Part shown: in pieces, positions 9,949 through 52,142 of the stretch
Layout of the letters: each line of letters begins with the position of its first letter
Numbering within the stretch: position 1 is the first letter of the stretch
Origin: Escherichia coli
GTDB taxonomy: Bacteria > Pseudomonadota > Gammaproteobacteria > Enterobacterales > Enterobacteriaceae
Reading direction: 5' to 3' (one strand)
NCBI RefSeq assembly: GCF_030013205.1
Contig: NZ_CP122648.1
DNA length: 64,000 bases
Translations under genes and position numbers: made by a program
Notes under the pieces: generated by a model
Told to the model about the DNA's origin: nothing
Database searches by the model: none
Seen by the model: the letters and a program-made list of their open reading frames with translations, nothing else

Positions 9949-10024
<76 letters not shown>

Positions 10025-10181: not shown

Positions 10182-10257
<76 letters not shown>

Positions 10258-39120: not shown

Positions 39121-39196
39121 GCCCGGATAGCTCAGTCGGTAGAGCAGGGGATTGAAAATCCCCGTGTCCTTGGTTCGATTCCGAGTCCGGGCACCA
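39121..39196 (+). tRNA. pheU: tRNA-Phe (GAA)
   Basis: GCCCGGATAGCTCAGTCGGTAGAGCAGGGGATTGAAAATCCCCGTGTCCTTGGTTCGATTCCGAGTCCGGGCACCA, 76 nt with GAA anticodon and CCA end. Confidence 0.97.
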
Positions 39197-39393: not shown

Positions 39394-40656
39394 ATGGCAC
39401 TGACTGACGCAAAAATCCGGGCTGCAAAGCCCACTGACAAGGCTTATAAACTCACTGACGGGGCCGGCATGTTCCTGCTGGTTCATCCTAATGGTTCCCG
39501 TTACTGGCGTCTCCGCTATCGTATTCTGGGTAAGGAGAAGACTCTGGCACTTGGTGTGTATCCAGAAGTTTCTCTCTCCGAAGCTCGTACAAAACGGGAT
39601 GAGGCCCGAAAACTGATTTCAGAGGGGATTGACCCTTGCGAACAGAAAAGAGCTAAAAAAGTTGTCCCTGATTTACAGCTCTCTTTTGAACATATTGCAC
39701 GACGCTGGCATGCCAGTAATAAACAATGGGCACAATCACACAGCGATAAAGTACTCAAAAGCCTCGAGACACACGTTTTCCCCTTTATCGGCAACCGGGA
39801 TATCACAACACTCAGTACCCCGGACCTGCTTATCCCTGTTCGTGCTGCAGAAGCTAAACAAATTTATGAAATCGCCAGTCGTCTGCAGCAAAGAATATCT
39901 GCTGTAATGCGTTATGCCGTACAGTCTGGCATCATCAGATATAACCCGGCTCTGGATATGGCTGGTGCATTGACCACGGTAAAACGCCAGCATCGCCCTG
40001 CACTGGATCTTTCACGCCTGCCTGAACTTCTGTCGCGTATTGACGGTTATAAAGGCCAGCCTGTCACCCGACTGGCAGTTATGCTGAATTTACTGGTTTT
40101 TATTCGTTCCAGTGAACTCAGATACGCCCGCTGGTCTGAAATTGATATTGACAATGCCATGTGGACTATTCCAGCCGAACGCGAACCTCTGCCTGGCGTA
40201 AAATTCTCACACCGGGGCTCCAAGATGCGAACACCACATCTTGTGCCACTCAGCAAACAGGCTGTAGCCATACTGGCAGAACTACAGACATGGGCTGGTG
40301 AAAATGGTCTGATCTTTACGGGAGCACATGACCCGCATAAACCAATCAGTGAAAATACTGTAAATAAAGCCCTGAGGGTGATGGGGTATGACACAACCCA
40401 GGATGTCTGTGGCCATGGATTCCGTGCGATGGCATGTAGTGCGCTGATCGAATCAGGTTTGTGGTCCCGCGATGCTGTTGAACGTCAGATGAGCCATCAG
40501 GAACGTAACGGTGTACGCGCTGCGTATATCCATAAAGCCGAACATCTGGAAGAACGCCGGCTGATGCTACAGTGGTGGGCAGATTTTCTGAATGCGAACA
40601 GAGAGAAATGTATCAGTCCGTTTGATTATGCAAAGATCAACAATCCATTAAAATAG
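39394..40656 (+). CDS. P4-type tyrosine integrase
   Basis: 420-aa ORF MALTDAKIRAAKPTDKAYKLTDGAGMFLLVHPNGSRYWRLRYR with C-terminal catalytic region (HGFRAMA, Y in RAAYIH); 200 bp downstream of a tRNA gene; SD GAAGG. Confidence 0.92.
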   Translation: MALTDAKIRAAKPTDKAYKLTDGAGMFLLVHPNGSRYWRLRYRILGKEKTLALGVYPEVSLSEARTKRDEARKLISEGIDPCEQKRAKKVVPDLQLSFEHIARRWHASNKQWAQSHSDKVLKSLETHVFPFIGNRDITTLSTPDLLIPVRAAEAKQIYEIASRLQQRISAVMRYAVQSGIIRYNPALDMAGALTTVKRQHRPALDLSRLPELLSRIDGYKGQPVTRLAVMLNLLVFIRSSELRYARWSEIDIDNAMWTIPAEREPLPGVKFSHRGSKMRTPHLVPLSKQAVAILAELQTWAGENGLIFTGAHDPHKPISENTVNKALRVMGYDTTQDVCGHGFRAMACSALIESGLWSRDAVERQMSHQERNGVRAAYIHKAEHLEERRLMLQWWADFLNANREKCISPFDYAKINNPLK

Positions 40657-41429: not shown

Positions 41430-41753
41430 CTGACTGGCATTAGGCCGCCGGGGGCGTTTTTTTACCACCGGGACTTCGGACATAACGGTGTTTTCAGTAA
41501 GTACGACAGGTACTGTGGAGGCACTCCCGTAAAGACGGGCATCAAGTTCCCGCTCCGACATACCTGCGGGCAGAGGCCATGAAAGGCCAGCTTTTCGGAA
41601 GCGCACGAACATACCACAAACTGTTGATTTTGGTACGCCCAGGCGACGTCCGGCCACAATCCGTGGTAAATGTTCTTCAAAGTGAAGACGTAAAGCTTCA
41701 GTGATCCAGGTCCGGTATTCCATACGATAGTGTCCATTAAAAATGATGGACAT
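41418..41753 (-). pseudogene. transposase N-terminal HTH fragment (family not assigned)
   Basis: 111-aa ORF with helix-turn-helix-like segment RRLGVPKSTVCGMFVRFRKAG; truncated. Confidence 0.35.
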
Positions 41754-42251
41754 TATTTTTGTGGAGCCGGAGGAAACACACCAGACTGTTTAAATGAGCC
41801 GGTTACCGAAATACGCGGGTTGCCGGTGTCTGAACGCCTGGCGGTCAGGCAAATGCAGAGTAAACCGCTACTGACTTCCCTGTATAAGCTGATGCAGGAG
41901 AAAGAACACACATTATCGAAAAAATGCCGTCTGAGAGATGCGTTCCGGTATATCCGGAAGCACTGGGTTGCGTTGTGCAACTTCTGTGATGATGGTCTGG
42001 CGGAGGCGGATAATAATGCCGCGGAAAGAGCGCTTCGTGCAGTCTGTCTCGGAAAGAAAAACTTTATGTTCTTCGGCAGCGATCACGGCGGCGAGCGAGG
42101 AGCACTGTTGTACGGGCTGATCGGCACCTGCCGACTGAACGGTATCGATCCGGAAGCGTATCTGCGCCATATCCTGAGCGTACTGCCGGAATGGCCTTCC
42201 AACCGAGTTGACGAACTCCTGCCATGGAACGTAGTACTCACCAATAAATAA
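41730..42251 (+). pseudogene. IS66-family transposase (TnpC) C-terminal fragment
   Basis: 173-aa ORF ending NNAAERALRAVCLGKKNFMFFGSDHGGERGALLYGLIGTCRLNGIDPEAYLRHILSVLPEWPSNRVDELLPWN, the conserved IS66 TnpC C-terminal signature; lacks the N-terminal catalytic part. Confidence 0.7.
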
Positions 42252-42385
42252 GCGTCAATACGGCACTCCGTTAACGCTTACGTTTAAGTCATAAAGCCAT
42301 GCAGAACGCTCACCTCCCAAGATCTTGGTTTTTATAAGGTGTAATGATAATGTAAGCTAATGTTTCACATGCCAAAGGAAACACC

Positions 42386-43714
42386 ATGAGCCACAGGGAA
42401 TTGTTCAGCGAATTTCTTGAAAATTTGAATCTTGACCTCAAACAGGCAAAAAAGATCAGCTATCACTATCGAAAAATAACCAAGTCATTAAATCTTGCGT
42501 TCAGAGGAACGAGTTCCCGGGTAGCAAACCGCTTGAAAGTGGGGTCAGTAGGCAGACATACCGCAATAAAAGGCATATCCGATCTGGATATGCTTTATAT
42601 TATGCCCCCCAATCAGTATGAATATTATAACCGTAAGGATAATGGTCAGTCTGCATTGCTTACAGATGTCAGAAACATTCTGGCGGAAGAATATCCTGAC
42701 CAGACTGTGAAAAAGGACAGACTGGTTGTTCAGATCATCTTTAAAAACTTTTATGTCGAGGTTCAACCTGTATTCAGACAGGATGATGACAGCTTTAAAT
42801 TCCCTGAAAGCTATAATGGAGGAGCATGGCGCATTACAAAACCTCTTCACGAAAAGGCGGCCATGACCGCATTTTCGCGAGATAAATCCAATAATCTGCG
42901 CAAGCTGTGTAAAATGATCAGAGCCTGGAAGAACCTGCATGGCGTCAATATGGGTGGCTTACTGATAGACACACTAGCGTATCGCTTTCTTTCATCAACA
43001 TCAGATTATGACAATACCGGAAATGGCAGCCTGGGAGCCCTCGCCAGAGACTTTTTTGAATATCTGTCAAATGAGGAGAGAAAGGAAAGGTATCTCGCGT
43101 TAGGCAGTAATCAGCATGTACGTGTTAAATCTCCCTGGTTTGGCCGGGCAGCGAAACACGCGTATGAATTATGTTGTGATGCCTTAGACGCTGAGGGGGC
43201 TGCCAGTGAAAATGACCGCTGGCGCAAAGTGTTCGGACGAGCCTTCCCCAGACGTAAAGTGGGTATTATGGAAGCCCGTCTTGGTCTGGAATCGCATGCG
43301 GCAGATGCTGTTCCCTGGACCGATACCGAAGAGTTTATAGAGGATAAATATCCGGTGGATATCAGGTACTCACTCAACCTTGACTGTACCGTAACCCAGG
43401 ATGGTTTCCCTCCCAGAAGCCTGAGGGAGATGCTTACCAGAAGATTCCGCCTCTCCGCTCGAAAATCTCTCCTTTTCCGGGCAGACTTGACAGAAATGGA
43501 GGCAGAGGAACCCTACACCGTTATGTGGAAGGTACTGAACGTGGGTGACGAAGCACGCAGAAGAAATATGATCCGGGGACAAATCGTTTCGGACGGCGGC
43601 TACTGTACGAAGAAAGAAACTACCGACTTCCGCGGAGATCACATGGTAGAATGCTATGTGATAAAAAATGAGGTTGTGGTTGCCCGGGCCCAGATTGAAG
43701 TTCCCATAAGCTGA
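42386..43714 (+). CDS. polymerase-beta-superfamily nucleotidyltransferase, SMODS/CD-NTase-like (candidate signalling nucleotide or oligonucleotide synthase)
   Basis: 442-aa ORF with SD AAAGGAA; NTase signature G-S-x10-D-L-D (GSVGRHTAIKGISDLD) near the N-terminus; stop overlaps the SD of the next gene. Confidence 0.6.
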   Translation: MSHRELFSEFLENLNLDLKQAKKISYHYRKITKSLNLAFRGTSSRVANRLKVGSVGRHTAIKGISDLDMLYIMPPNQYEYYNRKDNGQSALLTDVRNILAEEYPDQTVKKDRLVVQIIFKNFYVEVQPVFRQDDDSFKFPESYNGGAWRITKPLHEKAAMTAFSRDKSNNLRKLCKMIRAWKNLHGVNMGGLLIDTLAYRFLSSTSDYDNTGNGSLGALARDFFEYLSNEERKERYLALGSNQHVRVKSPWFGRAAKHAYELCCDALDAEGAASENDRWRKVFGRAFPRRKVGIMEARLGLESHAADAVPWTDTEEFIEDKYPVDIRYSLNLDCTVTQDGFPPRSLREMLTRRFRLSARKSLLFRADLTEMEAEEPYTVMWKVLNVGDEARRRNMIRGQIVSDGGYCTKKETTDFRGDHMVECYVIKNEVVVARAQIEVPIS

Positions 43715-43721
43715 GGTTTTT

Positions 43722-44297
43722 ATGACGCAATCAGAGATGCTGAAATTAATCGCCCGACATGGTTATAACGTTGGATTTGGCGCTAAGAAAAACTTTGCCA
43801 CCTATGATCTGATTTGTAAGGCATCCGGTTGGATTAGCTTTATTTCTCTTGCTGTCGGTGTGTTCGCCCTTTTTATTCCTGAGCTGGCCACAAACGTCAT
43901 TTCCGCGATATTAATTATATTTGGTGTTGCTACAATGTACATTCAGTTTTATGACTCGGAAAAGCAGAGTTATGAAAGTGCGGGGATTGAGCAGACCAAA
44001 ATTTTTAATGAACTTGAAGTCATCTACCGCAACGTAAAAAGCGATGCAAACTTTGACTATCAGCGTACACAACAATCCATCGACGCTATCATGTCCCGGT
44101 TTTACGGCACGGTCATCAGCAAACAGATCTTCGGAAGTAACTGGTACGCACATTATAAATTTTACTGTGAATTTGAAAAAGCATGGGTTGAAGAAGAGCT
44201 GAACCTGACACTGAAGGACAAAATCCCGCTTTCGCTCTGCTTTCTCGCCGGTCTGGCGATCATTTTTACTATAGCTGTCATCTGGAAAACGCCCTGA
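43722..44297 (+). CDS. 2-TM membrane protein, SLATT-like candidate effector
   Basis: 191-aa ORF starting 8 nt after the NTase stop; two adjacent hydrophobic helices (ISFISLAVGVFALFIPELATNVISAILIIFGVATMYI) plus a C-terminal hydrophobic segment. Confidence 0.6.
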   Translation: MTQSEMLKLIARHGYNVGFGAKKNFATYDLICKASGWISFISLAVGVFALFIPELATNVISAILIIFGVATMYIQFYDSEKQSYESAGIEQTKIFNELEVIYRNVKSDANFDYQRTQQSIDAIMSRFYGTVISKQIFGSNWYAHYKFYCEFEKAWVEEELNLTLKDKIPLSLCFLAGLAIIFTIAVIWKTP

Positions 44298-44848
44298 TGC
44301 TGCAGCCAATGAAAAATTCAGCAAGCTGACTGTCAAATATGCGATGTATAGCCGGTATCACCATCCAGTGTACGTTCTATAAGGGGGGCGCTTGGAAAAC
44401 GGGTAGAGTCAAGATGTGGCGCGGTAATTTTACAGGTCAGGCATATCTGTTGCCGCCTCTTTCGATTGGCGGTGCCTTACTGTCCTGACCATAAATCCTG
44501 TTTCCACACCCCGCTCATCGAAGCGGACATGCGCTTCTAACACATCCGGCTCTCGGACAGAATCATGCCTTCGCCCACGGAAACCTCTGCGGGAGCTTCG
44601 GTGCATATTTTCATGGAAGGGGATCACCCAATAACTTCCATCGAGATCGGGTCATAACGGCCAATCCGTGATCGAATAGAGCGGAATACGCACTCTGACG
44701 AACTGCTTACATTTAAACTAATTACAAACTATATAAATCCGCCTTGCTCATTCACAGGGTAGATATATTCTTACTTTTAATTTTATGTGTAATTAACTGA
44801 TGACGAAAAATGAATTGAACTGTAAATGCATATCTAAGTTTTTCATTC

Positions 44849-45574
44849 TTATGATGTACATAATACCTTAAAATTATCAACTAGCTGAGCATTAACCTCC
44901 ATCTGACTAATCCCCCATAATGCGGCTAACTGTTTCTCTGCAATCCCACTATCCCATGGCATTAGTGGGTCATTACGAAACTTAGCAAATGGCCCATCTG
45001 TTTCTGTAAGAATGCGTGATTTGGGTATTTTCAAAACTAAGGCCTTACCCTTTATTGTATCGAGCATAGCAGGCCCCACTGAGAACCAGCATCCTAAATC
45101 AATTGCCCTTTCAAGCTGCTTAGGTGTTCCAGTGAACCAATGCAATATTGCCACCCCATCGATATTTTCAATCTCATCAAGCACCGCTGATGCACTTCCC
45201 CGACTATGGATAGTCATAATCTTGCCACCAGCCCGATTTACACTGTTGAGAATGTGTCGGAACACTTTCAATTGAATATCCCAATGTTCTTTAAATCCCT
45301 GTCCACCATCAAGCCCTATTTCCCCTACATACTTAGTTTCCGAAAGCAATGAATCAAACAGGTCTAACTCATGCGATCTTTGATGCGCGATTTGAGGATG
45401 TAGCCCAAGAGCAGTTCGGATTCGTTGACTTTCTTTAGCCAATAAAGAAGTACCATGCCATGCTTTAGGTGTTGTTGTCACCGACAGAATATAAGTCCCT
45501 CGACGTTTACTTTCTTCAGCCACGAGGTCTGGCCGAGGATATAAGTCTAGATGACAGTGCATATCGATGCTCAT
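44849..45574 (-). CDS. qatD: QatD-like TatD-family metal-dependent hydrolase
   Basis: 241-aa ORF beginning MSIDMHCHLDLYP (TatD HxH motif); ATGA overlap with upstream qatC. Confidence 0.8.
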   Translation of the reverse strand: MSIDMHCHLDLYPRPDLVAEESKRRGTYILSVTTTPKAWHGTSLLAKESQRIRTALGLHPQIAHQRSHELDLFDSLLSETKYVGEIGLDGGQGFKEHWDIQLKVFRHILNSVNRAGGKIMTIHSRGSASAVLDEIENIDGVAILHWFTGTPKQLERAIDLGCWFSVGPAMLDTIKGKALVLKIPKSRILTETDGPFAKFRNDPLMPWDSGIAEKQLAALWGISQMEVNAQLVDNFKVLCTS

Positions 45575-46890
45575 ACTATGTTCTCACTCAGTAAATAGCT
45601 TTCAACCTCATCCAGGCCATCCTTAAATACTTGCTTGAAATTATCAAATTCTGCCGTAGGCAAAGGGCCACTTTTGGCAATCCATGTACCTATTTTCAAA
45701 GTCGATTTCTGCGTGATCGCAATCCTAAGGGCGATCAGGTCGTCCCTGCGATCTATTTCATTCATTACTTTAGCTAAGGACTGGAAAATATATTCAACAT
45801 CTCTACTAATTCCCCCTGCATGAAGTGATGCTCGTCGAATGATACACGGTATACATACCCCACATTGCTGCCCCATTCGTTTCCAATGACTGCAGGATAC
45901 TGTACTTTCCACAATTTTAGATAAGAGCTGCTTATTTGAACATTCGGAGATCATTTTTCCTTTTGTCTTAAACTGATATGGATTGATTATTTGACAAGAA
46001 ATACCGAGCGCATCAAAGATCTTTTGTATGCTCGTAATAAAATGTGGATGTGTTGTTCGTGTGCTCAGCGAACCTATCCGCCGTGGAGTAAGTGGTGCAT
46101 TTAATGAGATAAATCCATTTTCAGGTACGAACAAATCAATCTTTTCTTGTTGAGATATCTCTTGTACGGCACAAGCACCTACGGCCGCAAAGGCAAGAAA
46201 ATTGAGGCTACGAGTTCGCATCGTAATATCAGTCACGCCTTGATAAATGTGTGGGTCAGCATTAATCTCAAAGCGCGAAAATTGGCCACTTAATTTTTCA
46301 GCAATCTGATCTTGACGAGACTTATCCCCCTTATAAGCATGACTAACCAAAAGTGGAGCGCGCCCTGCAGCCAGAAGATCTATTGCACCAATAGCTGAAT
46401 CCAGACCTCCTGAAAATAGGCTGACACAGTCAAGCCCTTTTAGCTTAATCAGACGATGCCTTGAATGCTGGCTATAAGGCTCTGGCGGTGCATAACCATC
46501 GTCACAAAATTCGAAATCCCAGATGTCTCCACTAAGAAAATGCAAAGCACTCTCAAGTTCTTTCTTTAGACTAATCCATCTGGATGGTTCATGAAGGGGG
46601 AGTCGTAACGACAATTGGCGGGTCCAACCATCCTCGGAACTTTCACGCTGAACGAAAGTATCTGCTGCAGTTACTGCTAATGCAACACTCAGAAAATCCA
46701 TGACCTTAGCTGGAAGCTGTACTCCCAAACGTCTGATCCGATCAATCGCAGGATTCCCGATAACAGATATATCTCCGCGCCTCTGACCACTTAATCCATA
46801 TAGCTGAACAGGTAACACTTTCTCACTTGCTGGCGGCAAATGGTGATGTTTATGATGGAAAACTAATTGTGTCACTGGTATGCCTCCCAT
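45571..46890 (-). CDS. qatC: QatC-like QueC-family PP-loop ATPase
   Basis: 439-aa ORF with PP-loop SGGLDS (DCVSLFSGGLDSAIGAIDLL); overlaps qatB by 19 nt. Confidence 0.8.
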   Translation of the reverse strand: MGGIPVTQLVFHHKHHHLPPASEKVLPVQLYGLSGQRRGDISVIGNPAIDRIRRLGVQLPAKVMDFLSVALAVTAADTFVQRESSEDGWTRQLSLRLPLHEPSRWISLKKELESALHFLSGDIWDFEFCDDGYAPPEPYSQHSRHRLIKLKGLDCVSLFSGGLDSAIGAIDLLAAGRAPLLVSHAYKGDKSRQDQIAEKLSGQFSRFEINADPHIYQGVTDITMRTRSLNFLAFAAVGACAVQEISQQEKIDLFVPENGFISLNAPLTPRRIGSLSTRTTHPHFITSIQKIFDALGISCQIINPYQFKTKGKMISECSNKQLLSKIVESTVSCSHWKRMGQQCGVCIPCIIRRASLHAGGISRDVEYIFQSLAKVMNEIDRRDDLIALRIAITQKSTLKIGTWIAKSGPLPTAEFDNFKQVFKDGLDEVESYLLSENIV

Positions 46891-47624
46891 TCTTGCCAGG
46901 CCTCAATAATGGCCTGACGTTCAATTTTTACCATTTGGTTTCGTGTGAACGATCTTATGTTACCGGCAAGTTTTGGTGCCATATGTTTATCAACAACAAC
47001 TTTAATCAATTCCCGGAGTTCAATTTCTGCATGAATTGCCTTTGAAGGTGTATCTGCTTTGTTCCATGCCCTATTAGAATCCATTACCATCTGAAGGAAA
47101 ATACTTTCCGCTAGATAACCAATCATTGTGTCAACAATCACACCATCAGTTATTTTTTGAGGATCGAAAATTTCTACGCCATCAAGAGCCTCCACTAAAG
47201 CATGGTTCATGGCCGCACAGATCTTTTCTGAGTCACCATCCTGTGATGTTAAAGCTTGAGCAATAGTTGATATTGCTATTTCGCATGGAAGGCCTGCCAA
47301 ACTGCCCAAATCGATGCTTGGTTCTCCGGGAGCCGAAGGCATTCCCACTAAAGCCCCAAATAATTCGGCCCCAGCTTGCGTGACACTCCCTAATCGCCGA
47401 GCAGCGTTACTGCTCCCTCCGGAGGCTTTTCGCGCGTAGTGCCCTATGGCTTTTCTGAAATCTGCTCGATTTCCATTTGATACCGCATTTCCCAACGATT
47501 CTCGAAATGGCGCAAACCTCCTTTCTTGCGGCGAGGGTAACGGTTGCTGTGGCTGATCATCAGCCCATGGTGGAACCAGCGGAGAGCCACCTCCTGGACC
47601 TTTACTTGATTGTGATGTTCCCAT
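46872..47624 (-). CDS. qatB: QatB-like protein (no recognisable domain)
   Basis: 250-aa ORF whose ATG overlaps the qatA stop (TAATG); position between KAP NTPase and QueC-like genes. Confidence 0.7.
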   Translation of the reverse strand: MGTSQSSKGPGGGSPLVPPWADDQPQQPLPSPQERRFAPFRESLGNAVSNGNRADFRKAIGHYARKASGGSSNAARRLGSVTQAGAELFGALVGMPSAPGEPSIDLGSLAGLPCEIAISTIAQALTSQDGDSEKICAAMNHALVEALDGVEIFDPQKITDGVIVDTMIGYLAESIFLQMVMDSNRAWNKADTPSKAIHAEIELRELIKVVVDKHMAPKLAGNIRSFTRNQMVKIERQAIIEAWQEWEAYQ

Positions 47625-49408
47625 TAAGCGTCCTTATTCCATTGTTCATCTTTTAATGCTGCAGTCATCCACGCTGGTCGTTTCATCCCCAACTGTAATT
47701 CCTGTAGATAACGAATTAATATGCTGGCTGCATCTGTTGAGTAGCGGGCCAACAGACATGCGCCGGAAAAGCCTCTGGGCTTACGATCCCAATCTGATAC
47801 CTGCCGTAACTGGTTAATTAAACCTTCCATTACAGGTATTTGCTCCTCACGAGGAAGTGCTTTCAAAAGGTTTTCTGCTGTAGGAGAACTAGTGTTTTTC
47901 AATTCAATTAGTGCATTTAGTACTTCCCGTCCAGATGGCGATAAACCAACCACATATGCACCTATTGGCATAGTTTCTCGGGACAGATATATGGCGGCCC
48001 TTAAGTCAATCCCACCAAGACGAGGTTCAAGTTGGGCCCATTGACTGATGAAAGATTTAGTCGTTGGACTATCAGTCCATGTCTTTGGTGCATCAGTAGG
48101 TATTTGACCGCCATTATCGTCAAGCTGTTTAAGTATCTGGGGAACACCTTGTTCAATATCCACGAGATGATATAAATCAGCGGTGCCATCCACTCCAACA
48201 CAGCGTTCAAAAATTACTAGCTTAGTAATAATTGCTTCATCCAAAGGCATTGCTCGTCGCTTCGCAATTTGAGATCGCATTTTCACAACATTCAACAAGC
48301 GTTTAACGATCCTGGGATTACCATGAATAATTGGAGAGTTGGCTAAAATGGGAGCAATACGGTCAGCACGCGCAAACGCCAGCGCGAGGTTGCTATCATC
48401 CGCTTCACCAGTCATTTTTAAGGCCTCCTGACGTGAGATTGGTTCATCTTTCCAGGATTGCTGTAACGCCTTCTCTAAGCCCTCACGGAGCATAGTTATT
48501 TTTTCGCCTTCTAAGCCATGTTCAATGGCATAAAGCATGAACAGATACGAACGGATCTCACGGACCCCAGCCTTAGGCACCCGAATAGGAACCTGGATTA
48601 GCTTATCCAGATAATCTATTTGATGGCGCTGTGATGCCCCTTTGAAGTAATCAGCCACAGAAGAGCGAATCATGTCCTCATCTGCTGCAATAATAAAGGC
48701 TGTATTAGTCAAGAAAAGGAATAGCCTGATAGCTTCAAGTGTATGGATAGCATTGGCAGGGAGACAGCGGTCTAGGTTATCTATTACCACAATGAGTGGC
48801 TTTCCAAGTTCTTCTAGAATTTCCCCATATTCCTTACGAAAGGCATCAATCTGCTGAGGGGGGCTTTTTTTTGTTTGTGGTTTAATCAAACCACAAGCAG
48901 TTTCTTTACCTTCTTTAGCTATATTGCCTAAAGCCTCATACTCTTCCTGACTCTGGATGCCATCGGTGATATTTCTTAATGCACCAATCCCCCTAGAAAG
49001 CAAACCGCCAGTAGGTAATCCTGCCATTAAAGCTGTACCCTCAGCTAGTAATCCCATAGCTCTAAAACCATCAACTCGACTAAGGAGTCTCTTAGTTTTT
49101 GATATAAGGGTAGAATTACCTTCAGCAGCTTTTGTCAATTCTGTAGCGATGACTTCAAGAAGTGCGGCACGGGCGTCGTCGTACCCCTGATAGAGCCAAG
49201 AGTCAAAATTGATAACAATCCAATCTTTGTCGTCTTGCTCAAGTTTTTGCTCTATCAGTTTTAACAGAGAGGATTTACCTGCCCCCCAGTTTCCAAAAAT
49301 TCCGATAGATACTGGTAACATATCTTTCGTGGTAAGTACATCCACGGCTAACTGAGATACTTCACCAAAATTTAGGTAGTCTTCTGATGACTCTTTGTCT
49401 GACCACAT
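47624..49408 (-). CDS. qatA: QatA-like KAP-family P-loop NTPase
   Basis: 594-aa ORF with Walker A GNWGAGKSS near the N-terminus and Walker B-like VVIDNLDRC; SD AAGGA upstream of ATG at 49408. Confidence 0.8.
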   Translation of the reverse strand: MWSDKESSEDYLNFGEVSQLAVDVLTTKDMLPVSIGIFGNWGAGKSSLLKLIEQKLEQDDKDWIVINFDSWLYQGYDDARAALLEVIATELTKAAEGNSTLISKTKRLLSRVDGFRAMGLLAEGTALMAGLPTGGLLSRGIGALRNITDGIQSQEEYEALGNIAKEGKETACGLIKPQTKKSPPQQIDAFRKEYGEILEELGKPLIVVIDNLDRCLPANAIHTLEAIRLFLFLTNTAFIIAADEDMIRSSVADYFKGASQRHQIDYLDKLIQVPIRVPKAGVREIRSYLFMLYAIEHGLEGEKITMLREGLEKALQQSWKDEPISRQEALKMTGEADDSNLALAFARADRIAPILANSPIIHGNPRIVKRLLNVVKMRSQIAKRRAMPLDEAIITKLVIFERCVGVDGTADLYHLVDIEQGVPQILKQLDDNGGQIPTDAPKTWTDSPTTKSFISQWAQLEPRLGGIDLRAAIYLSRETMPIGAYVVGLSPSGREVLNALIELKNTSSPTAENLLKALPREEQIPVMEGLINQLRQVSDWDRKPRGFSGACLLARYSTDAASILIRYLQELQLGMKRPAWMTAALKDEQWNKDA

Positions 49409-49539
49409 TTTTATATCCTTTACATCACCAATTTTTACGTCATTGAGTAAACTACAGGTTTGATAAAACCAACTCTGTTCAGGTGGGCAAATTCAGTGTA
49501 CCACTTCATCAATAATCCAATATGATGACTGCTATAGAT

Positions 49540-50742
49540 CTATTTTTTAAAGAATGAAATAAGCTTTCTTATCCCAGTCCATATTTTCCTATCAGAATCC
49601 GAAGGGTTAAATTCGCTCTTGTCAAAATCAGCAACCTCAGCAACCTCAGCAACCTCAGCAACCTCAGCAACCTCAGCAACCTCAGCAACCTCAGCAACCT
49701 CAGCAACCTCAGCAACCTCAGCAACCTCAGCAACCTCAGCAACCTCAGCAACCTCAGCAAGGTTTATTCTATTTTGATGAGCTGTCAAATGTTCTTTGTT
49801 AATTTCATCTCTAATTAGCTGTTCTTTTTCTATGCTGTAGTTTTTGTCATTATAAGTCACATCAAAATCATCTAAGAAAACGATATAAATCAATTTAAAA
49901 AAACTAGTCTTAAATAAAAAACTATCGCACTCATCAGGAAAACCAAAAAAGAAAACATTAAGATATTTGGTTGCTTTGCGCTTGTCTTTTAGTCCATTAT
50001 AATACTTATTTGCTTCTGCTCTTTGTTTTTCATACTCACTACAGAAAAAACTCTTTTTACTTTCATCCCATTCTGAAGCATCAATTTCAAGTTTATATGC
50101 TTGTTTGGTACCTTTCTTTCTGGCTAAAAAAGTAAGGTAATATCTATTCGAATTTATCTCCAGCCGTATATTAGATTGAATTTTACCAAAATAAATTGCT
50201 GGCTTATTATATCTAATTCCTTCTTTATAGATGATTAGTTGAAAAGTATCTTTATAAGTTCTAACTCCATAAGGGGGAATTGATAATGGTTCATAGAGAT
50301 TATCTCCATTAATGTAGTAGTCTACTACCGGTTTGATGCTTGAAGATGACACAGGGTGTACTTTACCTCCCAAATCTTTTTCATCATCTCGCGTCTGTTT
50401 GATAATTCTTCTGCCAGAAGAGTCGTAATTTCTTTCAGACACATCAAGTTTCAGAAGAGATATAGCTAATGCCGGTGGTGAATTATGCTTTTTATTATTC
50501 TTTGAGTTACACTTATTTTTACTCTTAGGATCATGAATCTTACATCCCGGCCTATGAGTCTCTTTATATCGAAAGTATGATTGATTTAAATTTATTTCTT
50601 TGAAGCTACATGGAGTAGCGGGTATCCTACATTTGTCATACGGGCATTCAAAAGTGGTTGTTCGTATATAAAGATCATCCATTTCCCGAAGATCATGACC
50701 ATGAACAATTTCACCACTAACAGAATCTCTTGCTATTGTCAC
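49540..50742 (-). CDS. uncharacterised cysteine-rich protein with C-terminal (AEV)n repeat
   Basis: 400-aa ORF from GTG at 50742 preceded by a perfect SD (AAGGAG, 5-nt spacer); N-terminal CPYDKC...C...C cysteine cluster; AT-rich; ends 131 bp upstream of qatA on the same strand. Confidence 0.7.
   Translation of the reverse strand: MTIARDSVSGEIVHGHDLREMDDLYIRTTTFECPYDKCRIPATPCSFKEINLNQSYFRYKETHRPGCKIHDPKSKNKCNSKNNKKHNSPPALAISLLKLDVSERNYDSSGRRIIKQTRDDEKDLGGKVHPVSSSSIKPVVDYYINGDNLYEPLSIPPYGVRTYKDTFQLIIYKEGIRYNKPAIYFGKIQSNIRLEINSNRYYLTFLARKKGTKQAYKLEIDASEWDESKKSFFCSEYEKQRAEANKYYNGLKDKRKATKYLNVFFFGFPDECDSFLFKTSFFKLIYIVFLDDFDVTYNDKNYSIEKEQLIRDEINKEHLTAHQNRINLAEVAEVAEVAEVAEVAEVAEVAEVAEVAEVAEVAEVAEVAEVADFDKSEFNPSDSDRKIWTGIRKLISFFKK
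49629..49760. repeat. perfect 9-bp tandem repeat, about 14.7 copies (unit AGCAACCTC on + strand)
   Basis: Uninterrupted identical units read directly; in-frame within the 400-aa ORF, encoding Ala-Glu-Val repeats. Confidence 0.97.
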
Positions 50743-50980
50743 ACAATCTCCTTTGATAAAAATTAATAGATTCTAATTTCATACCAAGGCTAATTTAAAT
50801 AAAGGCTATTTAAGAGAAAAACAAGTCAGCCTGACAGACATATCCCCTCCCATGGCAATATGCCGCTATTTCGCGTTTTTTTTCACGCCATAATGCGTTT
50901 CAAGGTAGCGAATATCTTCGATTGCCCATGGTGTGCGCATTCTTTTGGGTTTATTTTCCATTACCATGTTTTATCAGCCA

Positions 50981-51235
50981 TCATGGCAGCCTCTCCGGTT
51001 TGCCAGCGTGTTCCACCTGATAACGATTAATCAGCTGATTCAGTGCCATTTCAGCCTGTTTTTGCTGCTGTTCACTGCCATTCTGGTTACGGGCTTCATC
51101 ATAGCGACGTAACTGCTCTTCCGCCGGGATATGCCGGTTAAAAGCCTGCATGATGCCAAACACCTCTGTTTTCAGTTCACTGACCGTCATGTATTTTCCC
51201 CGCTGTTCATCCAGACGGTTCAGGCGCTCAGCCAT
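50981..51235 (-). CDS. hypothetical small protein
   Basis: 84-aa ORF, Gln/Glu-rich helical; no family recognised. Confidence 0.4.
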   Translation of the reverse strand: MAERLNRLDEQRGKYMTVSELKTEVFGIMQAFNRHIPAEEQLRRYDEARNQNGSEQQQKQAEMALNQLINRYQVEHAGKPERLP

Positions 51236-51950
51236 CCGCGGCCTGAAGAGATAAAGGCGATAATAAAACAGACATCAGTGTCAGTGACAGCAAGGACGGA
51301 CAGCGCCGGAATAAGCTTTGTTCCTCAGCCCTCACGTTCCTGCAACATAATTTTCCAGCCAAACGAAAAACCTTTTATTCATGCCATACCAATAATCGCC
51401 AGCCTCCTGGCGATGCCTCCCACCATGTTTTGCAGTGGTACGCTACCGCCCTTCCGGTATTTACCCGCATCAACCGGTACCAGAATGCTGAGTAACAAAC
51501 CAGCTCAGAACTGACTGAATTTTGATCATTATAGAATAATGATCTGAACTGCAGCAATATAACAGATTTATCGATCGATATAACGCAAATGAACAGATCT
51601 TTATTCTGTCATATATCGCAAAAACAGCACATTACAAAATTTATAACCATAATTAATGGAAAAGTGCAGAAAATTATTCCACTGAATGCTTTTAATACAG
51701 TTAGTTAGCTAAAAAAATAGCAATTTTTGATTTCAGTCATTGAAAATTGCAATGCGTGACGATTCAACAGCATTTAAGTGAGTTTCAGGATATGGGAAGG
51801 ACATGAAAGGAGGAGCGCAATAAAATATACAGGAAGAAGGGGAAAATGTTTCGTAAAAACAGAAAATTAACAGCGCACATCAGGAAACTCAGTCTCCTGA
51901 TTCAGTGCTACCACATGAAAATTTAGTTAACTGTTACCGTACTAAAATTT

Positions 51951-52142
51951 ATGTCAGAAGATGTTCCATTACCGAAAGTCAATCAGCGATACAAAGACGA
52001 TCATGGTGCGCTTGTCACCGTGACCAGTGTTGAGGAAACCCGGGTGGTGTTTATGCGGGACGGCTATCCGCATCCCTGCATGCGACCGATGTACAACTTT
52101 CTGGGAAAATTCAAACCCGAACCCCGGGAAGAAACAGAATAA
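51951..52142 (+). CDS. hypothetical small protein
   Basis: 63-aa ORF following a roughly 450-bp AT-rich non-coding region. Confidence 0.3.
   Translation: MSEDVPLPKVNQRYKDDHGALVTVTSVEETRVVFMRDGYPHPCMRPMYNFLGKFKPEPREETE

What the first reader, a model, noticed from the sequence alone, without database searches (positions are those of the whole stretch)
44849..49408. QatABCD-like four-gene defence operon
Seen: four same-strand genes with overlapping or coupled junctions (TAATG, 19-nt overlap, ATGA) encoding, in order, a KAP-type P-loop NTPase (GNWGAGKSS), a 250-aa protein with no recognisable motif, a QueC-like PP-loop ATPase (SGGLDS) and a TatD-like hydrolase (N-terminal HCH). Established: this domain order is that of the Qat (QueC-like associated with ATPase and TatD) anti-phage system. 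Inference: the operon is a functional Qat system; its mechanism remains poorly understood, so a clean E. coli copy is a useful experimental handle.
Basis: partly seen in the sequence, partly recalled or inferred. Interest (0 to 1): 0.6.

Follow-up and report, generated by a model that had tools for sequence, protein, structure and literature searches.

The report
Known QatABCD anti-phage operon
This is an intact copy of the already described QatABCD anti-phage defence operon, found in about 4% of complete E. coli genomes (including strain CFT073) and already cloned and tested by others, so it is correct but ordinary.

Summary
Four tightly coupled minus-strand genes at 44849-49408 encode QatA (KAP P-loop NTPase), QatB, QatC (QueC-like PP-loop enzyme) and QatD (TatD nuclease). 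The same DNA (>=99% identical) is in 242 of 5,426 complete E. coli genomes, including CFT073, and RefSeq already names qatC and qatD. The published primers used to clone qatABCD from E. coli 46-1 match the window exactly on both sides of the operon. That clone gave about 10-fold protection against cytosine-containing T4, which QatD H59A or D193A abolished. E. coli Qat (strain NCTC9009) is also the original and structurally studied system, so a "clean E. coli handle" already exists.

Small additions:
- This is a separate Qat lineage: QatC is about 37% and QatB about 27% identical to the crystallised proteins. NCBIfam therefore misses its QatA and QatB.
- qatC most likely starts at a conserved GTG (GTGA overlap), not at the ATG that gives the 19-nt overlap.
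- The cassette lies on a tRNA-Phe island next to a type I CBASS, a pairing already reported.

The likely mechanism is ATP-dependent modification of the QatB N-terminal glycine by QatC. The chemistry of that step remains unknown.

The parts
47624..49408 (-). qatA: KAP-family P-loop NTPase, 594 aa. Walker A is GNWGAGKS at residues 39-46 and Walker B is IVVID at 206-210. A C-terminal domain of unknown fold follows.
   Evidence: PADLOC QatA PDLC02210 scores 1133 bits over 1-593/593. Pfam KAP_NTPase PF07693 has E 1.8e-54. The NCBIfam QatA equivalog scores 386 bits, below its 600 cut-off, so RefSeq names the gene only 'KAP family P-loop NTPase fold protein'. Orthologues in three other genera are 78-79% identical and also 594-595 aa.
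46872..47624 (-). qatB: 250-aa putative protein substrate of QatC. Its N-terminus is MGTSQSSKGPGGGSPLVPPWADDQPQQPLP, carrying the MGTS motif and the LVPxW motif. The start overlaps the qatA stop by 1 nt (TAATG).
   Evidence: PADLOC QatB PDLC02212 scores 433 bits over 1-249/248. NCBIfam QatB scores 74.6 bits, below its 100 cut-off. It is weakly similar to crystallised QatB (9VLL_A, E 1.2e-8, about 27% identity). The N-terminal 30 residues are nearly invariant across four genera. The precomputed annotations assign PF28083 (QatB) to the 78%-identical orthologues. The Pfam copy available here has no match.
45571..46890 (-). qatC: QueC-like PP-loop ATP pyrophosphatase. It is 439 aa from the ATG at 46890, but the likely true start is the GTG at 46875 (434 aa, GTGA overlap with the qatB stop). 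The PP-loop is SGGLDS at 160-165. T277 and T279 replace the Tyr and Asp with which QueC binds CDG (7-carboxy-7-deazaguanine). The zinc site is C333/C343/C346/C349.
   Evidence: PADLOC QatC scores 467 bits. NCBIfam QatC scores 413 bits against a 280 cut-off, while the QueC equivalog TIGR00364 scores only 21 bits against 150. PDB QatC matches are 9ZEE_B at E 3e-63 and 9VLK_A at E 7e-54, about 37-38% identity. Pfam QueC is weak at E 3e-4.
44849..45574 (-). qatD: TatD-family metal-dependent nuclease, 241 aa. Conserved residues are H6, H8, H59, H123, H145 and D193. The start overlaps the qatC stop (ATGA).
   Evidence: PADLOC QatD scores 322 bits. NCBIfam QatD scores 331.5 bits against a 230 cut-off. 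Pfam TatD_DNase has E 3e-43. H59 and D193, the residues mutated by Wang et al., fall exactly on the conserved His and Asp in this protein's numbering.
49409..49539 (-). 131-bp region upstream of qatA, the presumed promoter and 5' UTR. Nothing could be assigned to it.
   Evidence: The consensus scan found no sigma-70-like site on the minus strand here. Apart from the start-codon region there is no sequence conservation with the upstream regions of orthologous cassettes in other genera. The functional clone of Wang et al. begins at 49799 and so includes this region.

Best explanation
The locus is an intact, functional QatABCD anti-phage defence operon of a gammaproteobacterial lineage distinct from the structurally studied one. 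It sits on a tRNA-Phe (pheU) genomic island next to a type I CBASS.

Most likely mechanism:
1. QatB and QatC form a 1:1 complex. After removal of Met1, the flexible N-terminal tail of QatB places Gly2 in the QatC active site.
2. QatC is a PP-loop ATP pyrophosphatase. It uses ATP to adenylate a still unidentified carboxylate first substrate and transfers it to the Gly2 amine of QatB. This is analogous to Cap9 deazaguanylation of the CD-NTase in type IV CBASS. The substrate is probably different, because the two residues that bind CDG (7-carboxy-7-deazaguanine) are replaced by threonines.
3. Modified QatB then drives restriction. QatD (a TatD DNase that binds the QatB tail) and QatA (an oligomeric, DNA-binding KAP NTPase) act as effector or range-extending modules on phage DNA.

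What is shown and what is inferred:
- Shown here: gene content, motifs, conservation and the identity of the locus.
- Shown by others on homologues: the QatBC complex, the essentiality of G2, the tail and the PP-loop, QatD nuclease activity, and protection by this very locus.
- Inferred: the covalent modification itself, its chemistry, and how it leads to phage restriction.
For: Identity of the system:
- Full-length PADLOC hits for all four proteins.
- NCBIfam QatC and QatD above their curated cut-offs.
- Pfam KAP_NTPase and TatD_DNase.
- Similarity to solved QatC and QatB structures.

Motifs required by the model are all present: QatB MGTS and LVPPW; QatC SGGLDS, T277/T279 and the four zinc cysteines; QatD H59 and D193.

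The operon is a selected unit:
- Stop and start codons overlap at all three junctions.
- The same four genes, with near-identical lengths, occur in P. aeruginosa, Shewanella and Aeromonas in unrelated flanks.
- pN is 0.12-0.24 while synonymous sites are saturated at pS 0.74-0.85.

Function of this exact locus:
- The Wang et al. primers match at 49779-49799 (minus strand) and 44194-44213 (plus strand) with no mismatches.
- Their clone gave about 10-fold protection against T4(C), abolished by QatD H59A or D193A, and purified QatD degraded DNA.

Mechanism from the literature:
- QatBC is the minimal defence unit, and G2D, tail deletion and PP-loop mutations abolish defence.
- Met1 is removed from QatB, shown by Edman sequencing.
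- QatB binds QatD through its N-terminal tail.
- QatA binds DNA and is heptameric or octameric.
Against: - No modification of QatB has ever been detected. QatC shows no ATP pyrophosphatase activity in vitro with or without CDG, so the central chemical step is a hypothesis.
- All structural and mutational work on QatB and QatC used a lineage only about 37% (QatC) and about 27% (QatB) identical to this one. Transfer of the mechanism rests on motif conservation.
- For this lineage the only phenotype on record is weak (about 10-fold, and only against T4 lacking cytosine modification) and depends on QatD. In the other lineage QatBC alone suffices against lambda-vir.
- The promoter and the transcript structure are not established.
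Confidence: 0.9

Rival explanations
1. Nuclease-centred restriction. QatD is the true effector and directly degrades unmodified phage DNA, with QatA as the ATP-driven DNA sensor or motor. QatBC only regulates or licenses it.
For: For this lineage, QatD H59A and D193A abolished defence against T4(C), purified QatD degraded DNA, and growth curves suggested direct targeting rather than abortive infection. QatA binds single- and double-stranded DNA. QatB binds QatD through its tail.
Against: Operons truncated to qatBC, from P. aeruginosa and from E. coli, fully protect against lambda-vir, and deleting or mutating QatA or QatD leaves partial defence. Purified QatD cut modified and unmodified T4 DNA equally in vitro.
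Confidence: 0.25
2. RexAB-like abortive infection. QatB depolarises the membrane on infection, while QatC modifies host DNA to protect it from QatD. This is the PhageMaP proposal.
For: Bas63 genes g84 and g85, which are homologues of RIIA and RIIB, counter qatABCD by 10^4 to 10^5-fold.
Against: Crystal structures show QatB as a soluble globular all-helical protein in a 1:1 complex with QatC, with no membrane segment. QatC lacks the deazaguanine-binding residues, does not complement a queC deletion, and has no transglycosylase partner in the operon.
Confidence: 0.05
3. A 7-deazaguanine (queuosine, preQ0 or Dpd-type) nucleic-acid modification pathway rather than a protein-modifying defence system.
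For: QatC has weak Pfam and PHROG QueC similarity, and many database entries name homologues '7-cyano-7-deazaguanine synthase'.
Against: The QueC equivalog TIGR00364 scores 21 bits against a cut-off of 150. The Tyr and Asp that bind CDG are replaced by T277 and T279. No queD, queE, folE or TGT/DpdA genes lie nearby. QatC fails to restore Q modification in a queC deletion strain.
Confidence: 0.03
4. An inactive or decaying remnant carried passively on the island.
For: The island around it is littered with IS fragments and pseudogenes. A few E. coli genomes carry partial or frameshifted copies (16 of 258 genomes have under 80% coverage, and qatA is split in strain ETEC1703).
Against: In the window all four ORFs are full length, with every catalytic motif. 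They are under strong purifying selection and identical to copies in many strains. The same locus was active when cloned.
Confidence: 0.03

Closest known systems
QatABCD cloned from E. coli 46-1 (Wang et al., bioRxiv 10.1101/2022.06.16.496414; J Virol 2023)
   Same: It appears to be the same locus and lineage. Both cloning primers match the window with no mismatches and bracket the operon. The QatD H59 and D193 numbering fits. The amplicon is 5,606 bp here against 5,635 bp reported.
   Different: The 29-bp length difference is expected, because the amplicon spans the polymorphic 9-bp repeat in the upstream gene. The sequence of the 46-1 clone is not available, so allele identity cannot be checked.
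QatABCD of E. coli NCTC9009 (Gao et al. 2020; structures 9VLK and 9VLL) and of P. aeruginosa (9ZEE and 9ZEF)
   Same: Same four-gene order and same domain set. Also shared are the QatB MGTS and P-x-W tail motifs, the QatC SGGxDS loop, the T-x-T replacement of the CDG-binding residues, the Cys4 zinc site, the N- and C-terminal extensions of QatC, and the TatD catalytic residues.
   Different: This is a different lineage. QatC is about 37-38% identical and QatB about 27%. QatB is shorter (250 aa against about 280), and so is QatC (434 aa against about 460). The zinc loop lacks a roughly 10-residue insertion, giving C(x)9CxxCxxC here against C(x)19. PADLOC keeps separate QatA and QatB models for the two lineages. 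The NCBIfam QatA and QatB equivalogs miss this one.
Type IV CBASS Cap9 with its CD-NTase (N-terminal deazaguanylation)
   Same: A QueC-fold PP-loop enzyme binds a partner protein whose flexible N-terminus, with Gly2 exposed after Met removal, enters the active site.
   Different: The operon has no CD-NTase and no Cap10 (TGT-like) partner. QatB is structurally unrelated to CD-NTases. The CDG-binding Tyr and Asp are replaced by Thr. No NDG (N-terminal 7-amido-7-deazaguanine) adduct has been detected on QatB.
Canonical QueC (7-cyano-7-deazaguanine synthase)
   Same: Rossmann-like PP-loop core, the SGGxDS motif and a Cys4 zinc site.
   Different: It scores far below the QueC equivalog cut-off. It has extra N- and C-terminal domains and a remodelled substrate pocket. 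It does not complement a queC deletion.

Membership tests
QatABCD anti-phage system | Four co-directional, tightly coupled genes in the order A-B-C-D | tested here: met
   ORFs and junctions are shown. The same order and gene lengths occur in three other genera.
QatABCD anti-phage system | QatA is a KAP-family P-loop NTPase with Walker A and B motifs | tested here: met
   Pfam PF07693 has E 1.8e-54. PADLOC QatA scores 1133 bits. The NCBIfam equivalog is below its cut-off (386 against 600), which reflects lineage divergence.
QatABCD anti-phage system | QatB carries the conserved N-terminal MGTS motif and the P-x-W tail motif | tested here: met
   The N-terminus reads MGTSQ...LVPPW and is invariant across four genera. 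PADLOC QatB scores 433 bits. NCBIfam is below its cut-off (74.6 against 100).
QatABCD anti-phage system | QatB folds as a globular all-helical domain with a disordered N-terminal tail | not tested
   No structure prediction was run. The only evidence is weak sequence similarity to 9VLL_A (E 1.2e-8).
QatABCD anti-phage system | QatC is a QueC-like PP-loop enzyme with SGGxDS, a Cys4 zinc site, T-x-T in place of Tyr/Asp, and N- and C-terminal extensions | tested here: met
   NCBIfam QatC scores 413 bits against a 280 cut-off. PDB QatC matches have E 3e-63 and 7e-54 over residues 46-434.
QatABCD anti-phage system | QatD is a TatD-family nuclease with its catalytic His and Asp residues | tested here: met
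   NCBIfam QatD scores 331.5 bits against a 230 cut-off. Pfam TatD_DNase has E 3e-43. H6, H8, H59, H123, H145 and D193 are present.
QatABCD anti-phage system | Confers phage resistance when expressed | not testable with these tools
   The literature reports that the clone made with primers matching this locus gave about 10-fold protection against T4(C).
QatABCD anti-phage system | QatB and QatC form a 1:1 complex and QatB Gly2 is modified | not testable with these tools
   The complex has been shown only for the other lineage. The modification has never been observed.
Canonical QueC / preQ0 biosynthesis | Matches the QueC equivalog model and keeps the CDG-binding Tyr and Asp | tested here: not met
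   TIGR00364 scores 21 bits against a 150 cut-off. The positions are T277 and T279.
Type IV CBASS (Cap9/Cap10/CD-NTase) | A CD-NTase and a TGT-like Cap10 are encoded with the QueC-like gene | tested here: not met
   The operon holds only the KAP NTPase, QatB and TatD partners. The neighbouring cyclase belongs to a separate, convergently oriented type I CBASS with a SLATT effector.

The most novel reading that the evidence does not exclude
This short-QatB lineage is about 37% (QatC) and about 27% (QatB) identical to every Qat studied structurally. It has a shorter zinc loop, and its one reported phenotype depends on QatD. It might use a different first substrate, or couple QatB modification to the QatD nuclease more strictly than the NCTC9009 and P. 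aeruginosa lineage does. If so, it could be the version in which the elusive QatC reaction can finally be reconstituted. It is natively present in the tractable strain CFT073, fixed next to a type I CBASS with which it might cooperate.
Probability: 0.12. Interest if true: 0.45.

Novelty: already known. Interest (0 to 1): 0.18.

Why it matters
It matters little as a discovery. The system, this lineage, its E. coli distribution, its co-localisation with CBASS I and even a functional clone of this locus are all in the literature or in databases.

Its practical value is modest:
- It flags that RefSeq and NCBIfam under-annotate QatA and QatB of this lineage, naming them 'KAP family P-loop NTPase' and 'hypothetical protein'.
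- It shows that qatC is commonly called 5 codons too long.
- It shows that a second, divergent Qat lineage is available in CFT073 for comparative biochemistry on the still unsolved QatC reaction.

Tried and rejected
- I looked for a promoter and terminator to test co-transcription. The consensus scan found fewer sites than shuffled controls and none upstream of qatA on the minus strand. The qatD/SLATT spacer has no hairpin. The upstream regions of orthologous cassettes share nothing beyond the start-codon region. Co-transcription therefore stays an inference from the overlapping junctions.
- I asked whether the 400-aa gene upstream (49540-50742) is a fifth operon member and rejected it. It lies 131 bp away, has much lower GC (0.32-0.37 against 0.43-0.47), has no Pfam match and is absent from Qat loci in other genera. 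It is, however, linked to Qat in E. coli.
- I looked for known RNA families across 41500-52000 and found none.
- I tried to read the J Virol version of Wang et al. (PMC10308915), which is not held, and used the preprint and its supplement instead.
- dN/dS could not be computed as a ratio because synonymous sites are saturated between genera, so pN and pS are reported instead.
- Pfam gave no hit for QatB, because the local Pfam copy lacks PF28083. This is not evidence against QatB.
- A search for papers linking Qat and CFT073 found nothing.
Full report
**Observation**

- 47624-49408, 594 aa
- 46872-47624, 250 aa
- 45571-46890, 439 aa
- 44849-45574, 241 aa

Read on the coding strand, the junctions are as follows:
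- A/B is TAATG, a 1-nt overlap.
- B/C is either a 19-nt overlap (ATG at 46890) or a 4-nt GTGA overlap (GTG at 46875).
- C/D is ATGA, a 4-nt overlap.

The quoted motifs are all present: GNWGAGKS in the first protein, SGGLDS in the third and HCH at residues 6-8 of the fourth.

**Identity**

Against PADLOC the four proteins match as follows, each essentially end to end:
- QatA: PDLC02210, 1133 bits, residues 1-593 of 593
- QatB: PDLC02212, 433 bits
- QatC: 467 bits
- QatD: 322 bits

NCBIfam places QatC (413 bits against a 280 cut-off) and QatD (331.5 against 230) above the curated equivalog thresholds. QatA (386 against 600) and QatB (74.6 against 100) fall below them.

Pfam gives KAP_NTPase for QatA (E 1.8e-54) and TatD_DNase for QatD (E 3e-43). 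It gives only a weak QueC match for QatC (E 3e-4). It gives nothing for QatB in the local copy. The newer family PF28083 (QatB) is, however, recorded on 78%-identical orthologues.

**Motifs needed for function**
- QatB begins MGTSQSSKGPGGGSPLVPPWADD. This contains the MGTS motif and the P-x-W tail motif shown to be essential in homologues.
- QatC has the PP-loop S160-GGLD-S165.
- QatC has T277 and T279 at the positions where QueC and Cap9 have the Tyr and Asp that bind CDG (7-carboxy-7-deazaguanine).
- QatC has the four zinc cysteines C333, C343, C346 and C349.
- QatD has H6, H8, H59, H123, H145 and D193.
- QatA has Walker A (K45) and Walker B (D210).

**Already known and already tested**

The 4.56-kb operon is present at 99% identity or more in 242 of 5,426 complete E. 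coli genomes, with qatC and qatD named as such by RefSeq. Carriers include the archetypal uropathogenic strain CFT073, whose QatB and QatD have the same protein accessions as in a 100%-identical hit.

Qat was discovered in E. coli NCTC9009 and shown to protect against P1, lambda and T3. Three recent structural papers describe QatBC complexes from NCTC9009 and P. aeruginosa.

Wang et al. cloned 'qatABCD' from E. coli strain 46-1 with primers ACAAAGAACATTTGACAGCTC and AAGAGCTGAACCTGACACTG. Both match the window with no mismatches, at 49779-49799 (minus strand) and 44194-44213 (plus strand), bracketing the operon. The amplicon is 5,606 bp here against 5,635 bp reported. It spans a polymorphic 9-bp repeat, so a small difference is expected.

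Their QatD mutations H59A and D193A fall exactly on the conserved His and Asp of the window's QatD. That clone gave about 10-fold protection against T4 with unmodified cytosine only. The QatD mutations abolished this protection, and purified QatD degraded DNA.

**What is slightly different**

The window's proteins belong to a lineage distinct from the crystallised ones. QatC is about 37-38% identical to 9VLK (NCTC9009) and 9ZEE (P. aeruginosa), and QatB is about 27% identical to 9VLL. The lineage has a shorter QatB (250 aa) and QatC (434 aa). Its zinc loop lacks a roughly 10-residue insertion. PADLOC holds separate QatA and QatB models for the two lineages. The NCBIfam equivalogs miss this lineage's QatA and QatB, which explains the RefSeq names 'KAP family P-loop NTPase fold protein' and 'hypothetical protein'.

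The lineage is widespread in Gammaproteobacteria. It occurs in Yersinia, Photorhabdus, Klebsiella, Enterobacter, Pantoea, Marinobacter, Shewanella, Halomonas, Pseudomonas and Aeromonas.

**Evidence that the cassette is a selected unit**

In P. aeruginosa, on a Shewanella sp. ANA-3 plasmid and in Aeromonas, the same four genes (594-595, 250, 434-439 and 237-241 aa) occur with the same overlaps but in wholly unrelated flanks. Amino-acid identity to the window is 67-79%. Nonsynonymous differences (pN 0.12-0.24) are far below saturated synonymous differences (pS 0.74-0.85) for every gene. This argues for purifying selection on all four proteins and for mobility of the cassette as a unit.

**qatC start codon**

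Several lines point to the GTG at 46875 rather than the ATG at 46890:
- Most homologues are called at 434 aa, beginning MTQLVFHH.
- The corresponding codon is GTG in the window, P. aeruginosa, Shewanella and Aeromonas, and ATG in Yersinia.
- The GTG overlaps the qatB stop as GTGA and is preceded at 7 nt by GGGAGG.
- The upstream ATG is created by the conserved Glu-Trp codons near the C-terminus of QatB.

The '19-nt overlap' is therefore most likely an over-extended ORF call.

**Transcription**

Co-transcription is inferred from the overlapping junctions and conserved synteny. The consensus promoter and terminator scan found fewer sites than shuffled controls and none upstream of qatA on the minus strand. 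There is no conserved upstream element across genera, no hairpin downstream of qatD and no Rfam family in 41500-52000.

**Mechanism**

The best-supported model comes from the homologous systems:
1. QatB and QatC form a 1:1 complex, and Met1 of QatB is removed.
2. The Gly2 amine sits in the QatC PP-loop active site.
3. QatC is proposed to adenylate an unknown carboxylate and ligate it to Gly2, by analogy with Cap9 deazaguanylation in type IV CBASS.
4. QatD binds the QatB tail.
5. QatA is an oligomeric DNA-binding NTPase.
6. QatBC alone protects against lambda-vir, while QatA and QatD widen the range.

No adduct on QatB and no in vitro QatC activity has yet been observed. The replacement of Tyr and Asp by Thr suggests a substrate other than CDG. 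QatC also does not complement a queC deletion.

For this lineage the single published phenotype depends on QatD. A nuclease-centred reading therefore remains a live rival for how phage are finally restricted. Reported phage counter-measures are the Bas63 RIIA/B-like proteins and the JSS1 kinase.

**Context**

The operon lies on an island integrated at tRNA-Phe (39121-39196). The island has a tyrosine integrase (39394-40656) and IS fragments. A type I CBASS lies convergently downstream of qatD. It consists of a cyclase (42386-43714, PADLOC 587 bits) and a SLATT 2TM effector (43722-44297, 274 bits). The co-occurrence and co-localisation of CBASS I and qatABCD in E. coli has already been reported. 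It is visible here as near-equal genome counts: 257 genomes with the CBASS against 242 with Qat.

**Verdict**

Interest is low (0.18). The residual novelty is only that this is a second, less-studied Qat lineage that may be useful for comparative biochemistry.

Noticed in passing
window 49540-50742 (minus strand); repeat at 49628-49760: A 400-aa ORF lies immediately upstream of qatA. It has no Pfam match, low GC (0.32-0.37) and only a weak PADLOC hit to PD-Lambda-4_B (E 4e-6). It contains a perfect 9-bp tandem repeat of 14.8 copies that encodes (AEV)n. The matched span varies between E. coli strains, mostly in multiples of 9 bp (+90 to +414 bp), so the repeat is a hypervariable VNTR. The gene is linked to Qat in E. 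coli (245 against 242 genomes) but absent from Qat loci in other genera. It could be an uncharacterised defence-island gene.
   Followed up: partly
window 42386-43714 and 43722-44297 (plus strand): A type I CBASS lies convergently to qatD. It consists of an oligonucleotide cyclase (PADLOC PDLC00796, 587 bits) and a SLATT-domain 2TM effector (274 bits; NCBIfam SLATT_6, 224 bits). RefSeq names them only 'nucleotide-binding domain-containing protein' and 'SLATT domain-containing protein'. The pairing with qatABCD is conserved in E. coli, including CFT073, and has already been reported as non-random co-localisation.
   Followed up: partly
window 39121-39196 (tRNA-Phe), 39394-40656 (integrase), 41730-42251 (IS66 fragment): The defence genes sit at the integrase-proximal end of a genomic island inserted at a tRNA-Phe gene (by synteny the pheU site, between dsbD/dicD and cadC). 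Truncated IS66, IS4 and other transposase fragments lie between the integrase and the CBASS.
   Followed up: partly
window about 44659-44696, in the 550-bp spacer between qatD and the SLATT gene: A segment of about 35 bp matches hundreds of places on E. coli chromosomes and plasmids, up to 33 per genome, with no annotated feature. It is probably the terminal fragment of an IS or another mobile repeat. A 65-aa ORF (44430-44627, minus strand) of odd composition lies beside it.
   Followed up: no
RefSeq annotation of the same locus (L001 20001-22537; L009 10663-13199): QatA and QatB of this lineage fall below the NCBIfam equivalog cut-offs (386 against 600 bits, and 74.6 against 100). They are therefore annotated as 'KAP family P-loop NTPase fold protein' and 'hypothetical protein' in nearly all E. 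coli genomes, and qatC is annotated from the upstream ATG. This is a systematic annotation gap for this Qat lineage.
   Followed up: yes
window 9949-10024 and 10182-10257 (minus strand): Two tandem tRNA-Gly(GCC) genes lie far from the finding. They are ordinary chromosomal tRNA genes and were noted only from the whole-window tRNA scan.
   Followed up: no
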